In this document: positions 3,001 through 9,000 of the stretch, piece after piece | How the letters are laid out: the number at the start of each line of letters is the position of its first letter | How positions within the stretch are numbered: the first letter of the stretch is position 1 | From: Chlamydiia bacterium | GTDB taxonomy: Bacteria; Chlamydiota; Chlamydiia; Chlamydiales; JAAKFQ01 | Assembly: GCA_041688145.1 (NCBI GenBank) | Contig: JBDNIV010000017.1 | Coordinates: 1 to 64,000 of the forward strand | Length of the DNA stretch: 64,000 nucleotides | Direction of reading: 5' to 3' | Position numbers: made by a program

Positions 3001-6000
3001 GTAAAGCGCCAGTATCTTTTTTTAGGTGAGCAAGACGCATATTAGGAGATCTTTTCCAGAGATAGAATCCACATAAAAAGATCCCAGCAATAAACATCCT
3101 GAGTCCAACAAAAAAGACAGGTGAAAGCTCATATAAAAGAAATTTATTAGCAGTAAAAGCACTGGCTAAAAGGGCAAAGCCCAAAATGATCCAAGCCACT
3201 TAAAAACCTTTTAGGATTTAAAACTCGCTTGCCTTTAGTTTCTCTGCAAAGACGCCCTGTTTGGATAAGATGGCAAGCTCTTTACCGTTGCCCTTCATTT
3301 CTACCACAGCGCCGCTTTTTATTTCAATGGAAGACTCATCATACTTACCAATAAGAATCATTAAAATTTTAATAATCCAATCATGAGTGACAATCACTAC
3401 ATGCTTGCCTTTATGGCGCTCACAGATGGTGTGTAAGGTAGGTAAAACTCTTTCAGCAAGGTCTATATGGCTTTCCCCATCATCAATAATTTTATTGAAT
3501 AGCTTTTCATAAAAGTTGAGCTCGCTATGCTTAAGCATCGCTTCCATAAAGATATTCTCATATTCGCTCTTATGCATCCCTTCGGCTTTCCCAAGCCTTC
3601 TTTCAGAAACGCCCTCTTCAATTACCACATCGCAGTTGTGACGGCTAGCGATTAAAGTTGCCGTATCAAATGCTCTTTTCATCTGTGATGTGTAAATAGC
3701 ATGAATTGGATGATGCCCTAGGACCTCAGCTAAAAGCTCAGCCTCTGCCTCCCCTTTCTTATTTAAAGGGCAGTCAGATGCGCTATGCATAATGCCTTTT
3801 TTATCCAGATCTGTTTCCCCGTGACGCACGAGATAAAGATATGTCTCCATAAAGAAATTCCCCCTTAATCTGGACTATAGCAAATCCAAATTAAAGGGGA
3901 ATTGAAATCTGTTTTTTCTTACTTAAACTAGCTTGCTACAAAGAGAGCTTTCAAGCCAGTAGCTATTGCATAGGTTTTTGCAGCAAGGCTTTTTCTAGTA
4001 GACGGGCTTTCATTGAGCCCATGAAAGGAGTCTTCGAGTGTTATCTCTGTATACTCTGAGATATCCAAATCGTCTGTTTCTACAGTAGCAGGCGTCTCTT
4101 TAGCAGAAGGAACCTGCCCTAGGTTATCTTGAGCTATGATATCAGCACCCGCCCGAAGAAGCTCTAAGACCATTTGAGTATTGTTAGAGCTAGCAGCTAT
4201 ATGGAGAGCTGTCTCACCAAATACATTGGTGGCATTGACATCAGCACCTACCTTAATAGCAGATCTTAATTTGGCTATATCCCCTTTTTGAGCAGCAATA
4301 TGCAACACCGTATTCTCAAGAGCATCTCTTAAGCCTATTTCAGCTTGAGTGACAGGTGCACCCATTTTGCTATTGTGTAGAGCTCTATCAGCTACGCTTG
4401 TGATAGGGGCTTTTTTCTGAAATTGAATAGGGCTCACTTGATCTAAAGCATCTGCTCTATCCAACAAATCACTGAAAACATCTTGCCCTACTAGGGTATC
4501 TGGAAATTTCACACTCATACTAAAACCTATTTAAAGTAGTTAATTTATAATTCAATAATACTATTTTTAGTTTTATAAAATGCAAACATAACATTAATTT
4601 CAATTAAAGAGCTTTTGGCCGGACACAGCACAAAGTACTGACTGTAAGATCATTACGAATTGCGTACTTTAATGAGAGATAAAAAAATACGAGACCCTGA
4701 GTAACTTAGGCCTATCTGCCCAAGCCACCATCCACACAACCGCTTTGCTAACAATAGGCCTCTATTGAAGACTAGTAGCTATGCTTACCTACTTCAACCT
4801 TGCCTCTGAAAGTCCTATAAACATAGGAGGCGTAATAGTAAAATAGAGGCACCCCAGTAGCTGCTATAATAGTAAGGGTTAAAAGGGTGATAAAGCTCGA
4901 AGAACTATTGAATATAGTCATACTGTTTTCAGCAGCATTTACCGTTGAAGGAAGTAAGTAGGGAAAAGTCCCAATGCAAAATAGAGCTACAAAAAGAGCA
5001 ATAGCTACTACAGAAGAAATAAAGGCTAAGCCGTACTTTTTCTTGATTACACAGCGAATTACTGAAAAGAAAGAGCCTAGACTTAAGATAGCTACAATCC
5101 AAAGCGATGGTGAGTGATTCATCCGGTGAAGCATCTGCTGCTCAGTAGTGAAGGTCATTGTAGTTGCTATAAACCAAAAGAGCAAAAAGCCTCCAATAAG
5201 AAAGGGCATCCAGCTCTTAATCTGCTTTTGCAAAGCGCCTTCTGTTTTCATGAGCAAATATAGGGCTCCATGCATAATAAAAAGTGCTGTCGCTAGCGCC
5301 CCAATAGAAAAAGCATAAGCATTGAAGAAGTCGAGCTGATCTGGAATCATATTCCCCATTTCGTCTAAGGGTACTCCACGAGCCATATTACCAAGTACCA
5401 TGCCAAGATCAAAAGCCATCACAAAGCTGGAAAGACAAAAACATAGATCCCAAAAAGCCCGCCAATGTAAATTTTCTGTTTTGCTACGAAACTCTAGCGA
5501 AGCCGCCCGAAACATGAACATAGCTACTATGAGTAAAACAGGGAGGTAAAAACCTGAAGTAACCGCAGCAAATACAGGTGGAAAACCTGCAAAAATCACG
5601 CCTGTAGATATTACAATCCACAAAGAGTTCCCGTCCCACACAGGGCCTATCGCATTTAGAAAAATCCGCCTATCTTTGTTGCTTTTAGCAAAAAGATGTA
5701 AACAGCCTACCCCTAAATCAAATCCATCTAAAGCTGCATATGAAATCACTGCAACAGCAAAAACCAGATAGACAAGAACTTGTAATATTTCCATAAAATT
5801 CTCCAATTAAGCTTTTTTACCTTCGTAACGATCTCGAAACTCAGACTCGTCTTCTTCTAGAGTAGGCCCATGTTTAATCTTACGGTCTAATAAAAACAGG
5901 AATAAAACAAAAAATCCTGTGTAAATCACAATAAACATAATCAGTGAGATTAGGTTTTGCATAGGAGTCACTGTAGCTGAAAAGGCCTCCTTAGTTTTAA

Positions 6001-9000
6001 GAAGATCGTGAACTACCCAAGGCTGCCTGCCCATACAAGCTGAATACCATCCAGAGAGACTTGCTATCTGAGGAAAGGCTACAGAAACTATAAGAATCTT
6101 AAACATCCAGGGCTTGCCCTTCCATTTCTTTTTCCAAAGATATAGACCTAAAGCCACACAAGCCGCCATTACCACAAAAAGTCCTATCATCAAATGGTAT
6201 AGTTGAAAAACAACAGGCACATTAGGCCACTCTTCTTTTGGAAAGCTTTTAAGGCCTGGCACAGGGGTTTTAAAGTCTGAATGAACTAAAAAGCTTAAAA
6301 GGCCTGGCACTTTAAGGCCGTAAGATTTTTCAGCTTTCATATCCACCCACCCAAATCCATAGGCAGGCGTGTATTCCTGTGTATCAAAAACACCTTCAAA
6401 TGCAGCTAGCTTTATAGGATTATATTGAGCAATAACTTTGCCCAATCTATCAGCAGAAACTAGCTGTAAAATAGTAGATACTGTAGCTAGTATAAGACCC
6501 ATCTTCATAGCTACTTTTGCAAAATCCTTATGACGATTTTTTAACATGTAATAAGCAGCGATGCTGATTACAAGAAAAGCTCCTGAAAGCCACGCAGATA
6601 AAACAACATGACTGAACTGAGCTACAGTTGAGGGGTTAAAAACGACATCCCACCAGTTGCTGACCTGGGCTACTGTCTGCCCTCCCCTGCCTTTAACAAG
6701 CACATGGCCCGCTGGTGTATGCATCCATGAGTTTGCTGCTACTATCCAAAAGCCACTTAAATGCGCTCCAAATGAGACCATAATAGCCGAAAGAAGGTGG
6801 ATTTTAGCACTTACACGTTTCCACCCAAAAAGAAGAATACCTAAAAAACCCGCCTCCATTGCAAAGGCAAAGACCCCTTCAGCCCCCAGAATTCCACCAA
6901 AAACATCTCCTACAAAGCGAGAGTACCTGGCCCAATTAGTTCCCAAACTAAATTGCATAGGCACGCCTGTTGCGACCCCAAGAGCAAACGTTAGGGCAAA
7001 AACCCTAATCCAGAATTTAAGCTGCACCTCCCACTCATGGCTTTTGGTCTTCATATACATAAAAGCCATAAAAATCAGGAGCAAGGAGAGGCCTATGCTC
7101 AAAGGCGGATATATGTAGTGAAATGTGATCATGTAAGCAAATTGGATACGTGATAAAATCTCTGTAGTCACCTAACTTCTCCTGATTTTCAATTAAAATC
7201 CTAAAACTGCTCTAATGAGATTAAGATATCTCCTGAAAAAGCACTTCTATATAGCTCCCTCATTCTGAAAGGGCTGGAGATTAAGCTCAAGAATTTTCTT
7301 TGCAAAAGAAGATAAAAATAAAATAAAGTATAAAAACTATTTTCAAAAAATACCTATTTATGGATCATGACGGTAGAGCAAGCTTTTTCGAAACACCTAA
7401 CAACCTTTGGGAGTTGAAATGAAAAAATTAGATGTATTGACTGCGGTCCTAGTAATAATCGGTGGATTAAACTGGGGACTAATCGGTCTGTTTGACTTCA
7501 ACTTTGTTGACTATGTTTTCTCAAAAACATGGGTAGATAACTTAATCTACGTCATCATCGGTATTTCAGCTGCATACGAGTTTTTTGGCTACAAAGCCAT
7601 CCGTAAGCGCTGGAGCAAAAAGTAAGCGCACCTTAAGATCTTAAGTTCGCGTACTTAAAAGCTTTTTCCTTAGGGAAAAGGCTTTTTTTTGCTCAATAAA
7701 ATCTTAAAAGAGGTTCAAATTTACTATTACAGTTTTTAAAAACAGCTTGCGGAGATATTAGTAAGCTGATAAAATCGACCCTCAAGTCAAGACAATAAAA
7801 ACTAAGAGAAGCATCTCAATGCTGTACATAACACCTAACTTAGAAAGCCCAAGAACTATTTCTGATTGCTCTTTTAATGAGCAAGAAAATGAGCTCATCA
7901 TCACAGATCTAGAAGGTCGCACTGAGAAAATTGCCTTAAACGCTCTAACTGAGAATCTATTACCTTTAGATAAATATTCTGGCTCACCTCTCGCTGCAAG
8001 GATTCTACAGCCTATGTGTCTAAGGAAAAATCAATTTCGTTACTTCAGATTTTTAGCTATTGTTATCAGTACTATAGGGATTGGAATACTGCTTACCCCT
8101 CTTATCTTACACTTCGATCTTAAATGGACTTCTCAAAGAGAAGATCTCACTTTGTATAAAGGCGTTAAGAAGGGTTTTGACAACTTGAATAAGATCCATA
8201 CTGCTTTGTCTAAAAGTAATGATGTGTCAAGAAACACTCTTTTAAGGCTTGAACTCGATATTGCACGCTTCCACAGCATCGTTAATGGAGACTATTTAGT
8301 AAGAAGAGACTCTACTAATGAACTCACAGAATTAGGCTATGTAACTGTTTTAAAATAGAAATGCGGGCTAGTGTAGAGATTTTCAAGGAAATCAAGACAA
8401 AAAAAAGGGGGCGGTAAGCCCCCTTTTTAGTTACCTTACGTATTTTCTCCACGTAAAGAACTGGTAAGCAGCGGAAATACCGATGATTACGTATAGTAAG
8501 TCTTCTATCCACATCTGACCAAATACATAGTCAATGATGTTGATATCAAACAGACCGATTAAGCCCCAAGTTACACCTCCGATAACGGAAAAAGTGTGTG
8601 CTATAATTGGCAGTTTCTTTTTCATCATTTCTCCTATAATTGGATATCCTAGTATACTGTATACATGGGGGCTTTTCCCCCATAAACTTCACAATGTAGA
8701 AATCATCTATTTTTGACAAAGAAAATTTTTATGGTTCAATTAAACATCCCCCCTTTAGCTGAGAAAGAGCGCCCCGAGAGCCTTGAGAGTATTGTAGGCC
8801 AAAGTCATCTTACCGCTAAAAATTCTCTTTTTTCTAAGCTTTTAAACTCTAAAAATCCAACTTCTCTTCTTTTTTGGGGGCCTCCTGGAGTAGGCAAAAC
8901 TACTTTAGCTCAAATTTATGGAAAAAGCTTAGAAGGACATTTTGTAAGCAGATCAGCATGTGACACTTCAATATCTGATATTAAAAAGCTTTTGCAAGAA

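What a model noticed while it worked through the whole genome (the two positions that open the first line are those of the whole stretch)
4772..7171. Heme auxotrophy with cytochrome bd kept
cydAB is intact but hemA, B, C, D, E, Y and H are all absent; only hemF and the chaperone hemW remain. This chlamydia respires with heme taken from its host, like heme-dependent lactic acid bacteria. Host-heme-dependent respiration has not been described for chlamydiae.
Evidence so far: No GlutR, ALAD, Porphobil_deam, HEM4, URO-D, Amino_oxidase or Ferrochelatase row. Ferrochelatase absent in 9 of 31 genomes including the sister G001 and 98-99% complete G003, G005, G026. Nqr, NDH-2, a full men pathway, HemF (g00434) and HemW (g00671) are present.
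(Added by a program. Inside this text positions count along the whole contig: contig position 1 is position 1 of the stretch shown here. "Call 12" and the like, gene names such as g00115 and contig names such as C1 are that model's own, and its searches are not shown. The text may have been shortened before it was handed on; [...] marks where a part breaks off. The agent that wrote the report below was given it as the finding of a first reader that could run no searches.)

Follow-up and report, generated by a model that had tools for sequence, protein, structure and literature searches.

The report
Chlamydia breathing with borrowed heme
This lake-dwelling chlamydia has deleted the genes for making heme yet keeps an intact heme-dependent oxygen-respiration enzyme, as do dozens of relatives, so it most likely takes ready-made heme from outside, presumably its host cell; lactic acid bacteria do the same, and heme loss is already reported in coral chlamydiae.

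Summary
cydA (5807-7171) and cydB (4772-5806) are intact. hemA, L, B, C, D, E, N, Y, G and H were not found in G000 (92% complete). The loss looks real: the hemC-hemD and hemE sites are empty mid-contig, and sister G001 shares the hemCD gap. Corrections: the 'orphan hemF' sits on a 2.7-kb contig that almost certainly belongs to another chlamydia; hemW is kept regardless of heme use; one ExbBD pair is Tol-Pal; G003 and G005 have no cydA. G000 keeps Nqr, NDH-2 and menaquinone genes. Of 300 order genomes, 50 lack hemE and hemC, and 27 of these keep full-length cydAB. Within such genera dN/dS is 0.02-0.10, so the oxidase is under selection without heme synthesis. Against: G001 has wrecked cydAB and no NqrB was found there; no importer or CydDC was found; expression is untested. 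G000's CydA has Cys at the heme-ligand Glu445 position, a variant that recurs in chlamydiae, cyanobacteria and bacilli. Heme loss with host supply is already proposed for coral Simkania; I did not find the respiratory link in print. Verdict: new member of a known kind.

The parts
5807..7171 (-). cydA, cytochrome bd subunit I, 454 aa, short Q-loop. Keeps H18, E98, E106, H188, K254, E259, M328 and R382 (E. coli H19, E99, E107, H186, K252, E257, M393, R448)
   Evidence: Pfam; residue mapping to E. coli CydA; model pLDDT 89.4 (98), TM 0.86-0.89 to 7ose/7nkz/9fka/5doq
6035..6037 (-). Codon for Cys379, at the position of E. coli Glu445, the axial ligand of heme b595
   Evidence: role of Glu445 from passages of PMC6853902; Cys in 75 of 120 nearest homologues
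4772..5806 (-). cydB, subunit II, 344 aa, abutting cydA
   Evidence: profile 1-302 of 302
59156..60322 (+). hemW (stop-to-stop frame), radical SAM heme chaperone family; not a synthesis gene and not diagnostic here
   Evidence: TIGR00539 302 bits, cut-off 205 (39); Pfam
10589..13928 (+). pdhABC pyruvate dehydrogenase, a likely NADH source for the chain (context only)
1303..1692 (+). Tmemb_14-family membrane protein; considered as a porphyrin/heme carrier and rejected
   Evidence: in 39 of 61 genomes, not found in heme-less cydAB keepers G002, G026, G033, G034, G047

Best explanation
G000 is a true heme auxotroph that still respires or scavenges oxygen. Shown in sequence: the de novo pathway is gone, and one linear chain remains: NADH -> Nqr (Na+-pumping) or NDH-2 -> menaquinone -> cytochrome bd -> O2. 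Cytochrome bd is the only heme protein found (no heme-copper oxidase, Sdh or catalase). Inferred: the oxidase is made and works, and it is loaded with finished heme b from outside. Without a ferrochelatase it cannot use porphyrin precursors. The host cell is the likeliest source for an intracellular chlamydia. Most speculative step: heme enters without a dedicated importer, by partitioning through the envelope or through the Opp system, and is inserted without CydDC. The same state arose repeatedly across the order; in some lines it lasts, in others (G001) the chain is later lost.
For: Empty sites mid-contig: radA stop to sodA start is 65 bp in G000 where three relatives have radA-hemC-hemD-sodA, and tkt is followed by an unrelated ORF where relatives have hemE. 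G001 has the same radA-sodA junction. G000/G001 synonymous sites are near saturation in all 19 gene pairs compared (pS 0.67-0.81), so if the deletion is shared, cydAB stayed whole long after it. The surviving part of G001 cydA is 60% identical to G000, like tkt (64%) and gnd (61%), so its breakage is recent. Two full-length CydA relatives at 80-81% identity exist. G000 CydA departs from 3 of 95 conserved columns, within the range of heme-makers (0-7, outliers G029 and L102 aside). Order-wide: hemE absent in 51 of 300 scored genomes; 50 of those also lack hemC; 27 of the 50 have full-length cydA and cydB. All sampled members of genera g34 (4 of 4), g35 (4 of 4) and g27 (2 of 2), and all five hemE-negative g130 genomes, keep cydAB. 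Within-genus dN/dS is 0.016-0.063 for cydA and 0.038-0.100 for cydB; the one unsaturated pair (G067/G086, dS 0.39) gives 0.031 and 0.062. Cys at the Glu445 position does not mark decay: 78 of 80 fully flanked pattern hits are CydA, mostly cyanobacterial and Bacillales, with the mapped His ligands kept.
Against: Sister G001 (95% complete) has broken cydA and no cydB or NqrB match, and 23 of the 50 heme-less genomes lack a full cydA, so loss of the oxidase is a common end state. No dN/dS could be measured on G000's own branch: the laid contigs listed no variant in cydAB, with 15 rows not shown. Most dN/dS pairs are saturated, and I ran no housekeeping or heme-maker control. No importer found: no TonB-dependent receptor in 5 of 5 genomes, only weak FecCD matches, no CydD above cut-off in 5 of 5 (53), though CydDC is required for bd maturation in E. 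coli (abstract of PMC10374445). The shared radA-sodA junction could be two separate deletions. The host is unknown, and free or neighbour-derived heme is not excluded. Heme status of the two 80% relatives is unknown. G000's Cys-type enzyme is uncharacterised.
Confidence: 0.7

Rival explanations
1. cydAB in G000 is a relic: the heme pathway went first and the oxidase has not yet decayed, as it now has in G001.
For: G001 cydA is frameshifted and truncated, with cydB deleted at the same site and no NqrB match. Sdh is gone in G000. A second, Cys-type copy in G051 has cydB split by an inserted ORF (28, 30). No importer or CydDC.
Against: No hem remnants are detectable and the gaps are clean, which points to an old loss. 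Both ORFs, the ligands, Nqr and men genes are whole. CydA is not faster than its clade (identity to ten outgroups 0.51, clade range 0.49-0.55).
Confidence: 0.15
2. The Cys-type CydAB has a changed job or cofactor set (fewer hemes; O2, NO or sulfide defence rather than energy conservation) and needs little heme.
For: Glu445 ligates heme b595 and is critical for its properties in E. coli. The Cys form occurs as a second copy beside a Glu form in G051 and G258. G000 lacks the Glu form at the usual cdaA site.
Against: Heme b558 ligands, the quinol site and the E99/E107 equivalents are kept in 71-75 of 75 Cys-type homologues. It is the only cydA found in G000, G008 and G097. It would still need outside heme. 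25 of the 27 heme-less keepers carry a Glu form.
Confidence: 0.08
3. G000 makes heme by unrecognised enzymes, or finishes imported precursors (a Leishmania-like late pathway using HemF; the Leishmania comparison is recalled).
For: hemF is in the bin. Orphan hemD survives in G002, G026 and G034, and hemB in G038.
Against: hemF is on a probable foreign contig. No HemY, HemG, ferrochelatase or CbiX-type chelatase. HemJ and ChdC were not searched.
Confidence: 0.04
4. The hem genes are simply missing from an incomplete bin.
For: 92.29% complete, 51 contigs. G309 shows that one gene can be missed (hemE absent, hemC present).
Against: The genes lie at several separate loci in relatives. Two sites are empty in the middle of the 97-kb contig C9 (19). 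Missing four independent loci by chance is about 4e-5 (97, a rough figure). G001 lacks them too.
Confidence: 0.03

Closest known systems
Heme-dependent respiration of Lactococcus lactis, Streptococcus agalactiae, Enterococcus faecalis (search listings of PMC5238366, PMC6030563, PMC11220326)
   Same: No de novo heme synthesis; a short chain of NDH-2, menaquinone and cytochrome bd. The L. lactis control has cydA, cydB and HemW matches and none for HemB, HemC or HemE.
   Different: G000 is Gram-negative and intracellular, adds Nqr, makes its own menaquinone and has no ferrochelatase (the L. lactis control has one). No CydDC was found, which lactic acid bacteria encode (recalled).
Heme-less coral Simkaniaceae MAGs Pac_F2b and 3300010035-10 (passages of PMC11809670 and PMC11070183)
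   Same: Chlamydiae lacking all heme synthesis genes, with menaquinone kept in Pac_F2b, no import system found, and heme from the host or neighbours proposed.
   Different: Those texts do not mention cytochromes or tie heme to respiration, and cover two genomes. Here 50 of 300 genomes are heme-less and 27 keep cydAB, under purifying selection where measured.
acI and other predicted heme auxotrophs (passages of 10.1101/2021.01.11.426183)
   Same: Respiring bacteria without heme synthesis; dpp-like systems offered as importers.
   Different: Free-living, with the need for heme shown in culture; the main text does not mention chlamydiae.
Cytochrome bd quinol oxidases, qOR family (E. coli bd-I/II, Geobacillus bd; 10.1101/2021.01.16.426971, PMC6853902)
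   Same: Fold, b558 ligands, quinol-site and proton-channel residues, CydB partner.
   Different: Cys replaces the Glu445/Glu378 heme ligand. Among the seven solved CydA sequences matched, the three alignments shown have Glu there.
Anoxychlamydiaceae (passages of PMC9816063)
   Same: Chlamydiae that remodelled respiration.
   Different: They lost cytochrome bd; G000 keeps it. The 23 heme-less genomes without full cydA resemble that end state (their family names were not determined).

Membership tests
Cytochrome bd quinol oxidase (qOR) | Adjacent full-length CydA and CydB with the bd fold | tested here: met
Cytochrome bd quinol oxidase (qOR) | Heme b558 ligands (H186, M393) and quinol-site K252, E257 | tested here: met
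   H188, M328, K254, E259
Cytochrome bd quinol oxidase (qOR) | Active-site H19, E99, E107 | tested here: met
   H18, E98, E106
Cytochrome bd quinol oxidase (qOR) | Third heme ligand on helix 8, Glu445 in solved structures | tested here: inconclusive
   Glu is replaced by Cys379. Cys is a conserved natural alternative in chlamydial, cyanobacterial and Bacillales CydA, so G000 is filed as a Cys variant, not a canonical Glu-type enzyme; whether Cys binds the iron was not tested.
Cytochrome bd quinol oxidase (qOR) | Binds three hemes and reduces O2 with quinol | not testable with these tools
   needs purified enzyme
Heme auxotroph with heme-activated respiration | No de novo tetrapyrrole pathway | tested here: met
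   empty sites; 92% complete bin
Heme auxotroph with heme-activated respiration | Dehydrogenase, quinone and heme oxidase all encoded | tested here: met
   MenH not clearly found, NqrF by motif only
Heme auxotroph with heme-activated respiration | Heme uptake route or CydDC assembly transporter | tested here: inconclusive
   No TonB receptor, heme-type ABC permease or CydD above cut-off. Opp, Mla and MsbA-like transporters are present but untested. The genome was not scanned protein by protein.
Heme auxotroph with heme-activated respiration | O2 uptake or growth depends on outside heme | not testable with these tools
   uncultured
TonB-ExbBD heme import system | TonB-dependent outer-membrane receptor with an ExbBD-TonB motor | tested here: not met
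   PF00593 in 0 of 5 genomes. The C44 pair matches TolQ and lies upstream of a TolB homologue, with Pal on C35. A second pair on C27 is unassigned.

The most novel reading that the evidence does not exclude
Many chlamydial lineages independently became respiratory heme parasites that build cytochrome bd from host heme with no known importer and no CydDC; and in G000 the oxidase is a cysteine-ligated (thiolate) form of the bd family, a chemistry not found described in the papers searched although it is common in cyanobacteria and bacilli.
Probability: 0.3. Interest if true: 0.72.

Novelty: new member of a known kind. Interest (0 to 1): 0.5.

Why it matters
It would add heme to the cofactors chlamydiae take from their hosts and give the reported heme loss in coral Simkania a purpose: keeping a high-affinity oxidase running. 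About one in six order genomes sampled (50 of 300) is heme-less and about half of those keep cydAB, which gives repeated natural experiments on how heme crosses an inclusion and a Gram-negative envelope without a receptor, and how bd matures without CydDC. The Cys-for-Glu ligand is a separate, directly testable question about what heme b595 does; a review of cyanobacterial metalloproteins still states that the His/Glu ligands are conserved in the whole family (PMC6616624).

Tried and rejected
Orphan hemF as a real remnant: rejected, C24 is a probable contaminant; tetranucleotide distance did not separate it (79th percentile), so the case rests on the duplicate gnd and synteny. HemW as a sign of heme use: rejected (present in G003, G005, G013 and G049, which have neither pathway nor cydA). 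Tmemb_14 near cydB as a carrier (the link to mammalian TMEM14C is recalled): rejected by distribution. ExbBD as importer: rejected for C44. TPS-domain proteins: confirmed as PF05860 for one ORF (79), no evidence tying them to heme. Conserved transporter beside cydAB in heme-less genomes: none seen on reading the ORFs of 13 loci. Cys379 as decay or as a chlamydial invention: rejected. c-type cytochromes: seven CxxCH ORFs; three scanned and none matched a cytochrome family, HemW is a fourth, three were not scanned. Strain variation in cydAB: four runs laid, no cydAB variant listed; L107 differs by one base. No RNA holder listed. CydA tree: quick tree only, heme-less rows not clustered (9 changes, shuffled mean 8.3); the CydB tree timed out; no species tree was built. 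Earlier scan notes: nothing relevant. G089 was not scored.
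Full report
Observation. The window is C32:1-64000 of G000 (1.275 Mb, 51 contigs, 92.29% complete, 1.34% contaminated). 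The nearest named homologues are chlamydial, and near-identical DNA lies in lake or freshwater runs of four studies, one of which may be the source. cydA (5807-7171, minus) and cydB (4772-5806, minus) are full length. The model has mean pLDDT 89.4 and matches solved bd oxidases at TM 0.86-0.89.

The pathway is gone. Family searches found no HemH, HemB, HemE, HemC or HemA in G000. Profiles from chlamydial orthologues found no HemA, B, C, D, E or H, two weak hits for HemY, and only HemW for HemN. HemL and HemG queries from E. coli found only bioA and nothing; CbiX was absent in 5 of 5 genomes. Incompleteness does not explain this. On the 97-kb contig C9, radA and sodA are 65 bp apart where G020, G059 and G056 have hemC-hemD between them, and tkt is followed by an unrelated ORF where relatives have hemE. 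G001 has the same radA-sodA junction.

HemF and HemW. hemF lies on C24 (2,662 bp) with a gnd gene. G000 has a second gnd on C43, 64% identical and next to lepA as in G001 and G026. C24 is 78-80% identical in DNA to three genomes of another lineage, with hemF-gnd in the same order and hemY upstream, while the C43 gnd is 66% identical to theirs. C24 is therefore most likely mis-binned, and the 'unexplained orphan' disappears. HemW matches in 59 of 61 genomes, including four with neither pathway nor cydA, so it says nothing about heme use.

The rest of the chain. G000 has NqrA-E, an NqrF-like ORF, NDH-2, a men cluster on C6 and a UbiE/MenG homologue. It has no heme-copper oxidase, Sdh or catalase, so cytochrome bd is the only heme protein found; PetB was not searched and the proteome was not scanned in full.

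Relatives. In the first 61 genomes, 16 lack both hemC and hemE; nine have a cydA match and seven do not. In 300 scored genomes at least 90% complete, hemE is missing in 51; 50 of these also lack hemC, and 27 of the 50 have full-length cydA and cydB. They fall in several families whose other members make heme, which implies repeated loss; no species tree was built. Families f33 (0 of 4 with hemE), f34 (0 of 7) and f26 (0 of 2) are wholly heme-less and keep cydAB in 4, 6 and 2 genomes. Within heme-less genera dN/dS is 0.016-0.063 for cydA and 0.038-0.100 for cydB where it could be computed; most pairs are saturated, and the single unsaturated pair gives 0.031 and 0.062. This is the best evidence that the oxidase works without heme synthesis, but it concerns other genera, and I ran no control genes.

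Against. In G001 cydA shifts frame after about codon 302, its 3' end and cydB are deleted, and NqrB is not found. Twenty-three of the 50 heme-less genomes lack a full cydA. G000 could be on that road. Two things weigh the other way: the G000/G001 split is old (pS 0.67-0.81 in 19 gene pairs) and G001's cydA remnant is as conserved as tkt or gnd, so it broke long after the apparently shared hemCD deletion; and G000's CydA shows no excess change. No cydAB variants were listed in the four runs laid.

Import. No TonB-dependent receptor in 5 of 5 genomes; FecCD matches are weak; no CydD reaches cut-off, the best match being a single ABC exporter on C47 at 283 of 435 bits. The C44 ExbBD pair is upstream of a TolB homologue, with Pal on C35; a second pair on C27, also matched in G001, is unassigned. 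The ABC systems scanned are FtsX/Lol-type, ABC-2, Mla, ABC-3 metal, Opp and MsbA-like. Opp is the only one of a kind proposed elsewhere for heme uptake. Passive entry through a deep-rough envelope is possible by analogy with hemin-permeable enteric mutants (recalled, not checked). The route is unknown, and the host source is inferred from the chlamydial lifestyle.

The Cys ligand. G000 CydA keeps every mapped ligand and quinol-site residue except Glu445, which is Cys379. Glu445 ligates heme b595 in E. coli (PMC6853902). The Cys form defines most of a chlamydial subclade (SH-aLRT 99, which also holds Glu-type G019) and is in 75 of the 120 nearest homologues listed. A pattern scan stopped at 120 hits; 78 of the 80 with full flanks are CydA, mostly cyanobacterial and Bacillales. 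It is thus a recurrent natural variant. I did not find it discussed in searches or in term searches of 10.1101/2021.01.16.426971 and PMC12994193; the library lacks most subscription papers, including the original Synechocystis enzyme study. Among the 27 heme-less keepers only G000 and G097 rely on the Cys form alone, so it is not tied to auxotrophy.

Literature. Passages only were read for PMC11809670, PMC11070183, PMC11317633, PMC9816063, PMC8242063, PMC9666466, PMC6853902, PMC12994193, PMC6616624 and the two preprints; abstract and outline for PMC10374445; search listings only for the lactic-acid-bacteria papers. PMC11809670 reports a Simkania without the heme pathway, no import system, and possible heme supply from host or Endozoicomonas; PMC11070183 reports all ten genes missing in two MAGs. 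A link to cytochrome bd was not found in searches. No supplements were read; the pathway tables of those papers, of PMC9816063 and of the GTDB-wide heme survey may already hold the co-occurrence.

Verdict. Shown: intact cydAB, loss of the pathway, a co-retained chain, recurrence across the order, and purifying selection in other heme-less genera. Inferred: function in G000, the host as source, the entry route. Best explanation 0.70, relic 0.15, altered enzyme 0.08, hidden pathway 0.04, assembly gap 0.03. It works like the heme-activated respiration of lactic acid bacteria and is a new member of that kind; interest 0.5.

Noticed in passing
L143:3122-3862, L145:2940-3599, L142:3041-3706 (G002, G026, G034): hemD (PF02602 above cut-off) is kept between radA and sodA in three families that lack hemB, hemC, hemE and hemH, suggesting a second role for chlamydial HemD or slow loss.
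   Followed up: partly
G038:C24:182232-183185: Orphan hemB in a 99% complete genome lacking hemC, hemE, hemF and hemH, which keeps cydAB and two COX1-family matches.
   Followed up: no
G034:C9:25452-26798; G012:C39:8091-9398; G038:C3:4066-5415: Heme-less genomes that also keep heme-copper oxidase subunits, a larger heme demand than G000's.
   Followed up: no
L140 (G265:C3:25321-29613): One genome in genus g37 (1.0-1.3 Mb genomes, otherwise hemE-positive) lacks hemE and hemC matches but keeps full cydAB; 95% complete, about 60 contigs, some bases withheld, so a gap is possible.
   Followed up: partly
G013:C12:17168-18082: Divergent ferrochelatase-family match (E 6e-26) in a 100% complete genome with no hemB, hemC, hemE or cydA.
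   Followed up: no
L192-L271: Cys at the Glu445 position of CydA in dozens of cyanobacteria and Bacillales, apparently arisen separately from the chlamydial form; a few Bacillales also replace Met393 with Phe, Leu or Ile.
   Followed up: partly
G000:C24:1-2662: Probable contaminant contig from another chlamydial lineage (hemF, gnd, amiA fragment).
   Followed up: yes
L076 (G051:C1:464500-471000): Second, Cys-type cydAB copy whose cydB is split by an inserted 355-aa ORF that looks like a transposase (label by eye, not scanned).
   Followed up: no
window 7407-7625: 72-aa membrane ORF divergent from cydA, also at this site in G001; resembles DUF378 (recalled label, not scanned).
   Followed up: no
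window 3928-4518: Ankyrin-repeat protein right after cydB; absent from the matching G001 site.
   Followed up: no
G000:C2:23472-26885, C12:38798-40162, C18, C33: Family of related TPS-domain proteins in several copies.
   Followed up: partly
G033, G097: Heme-less genomes with full cydAB but no NqrB match; their electron input was not examined.
   Followed up: no
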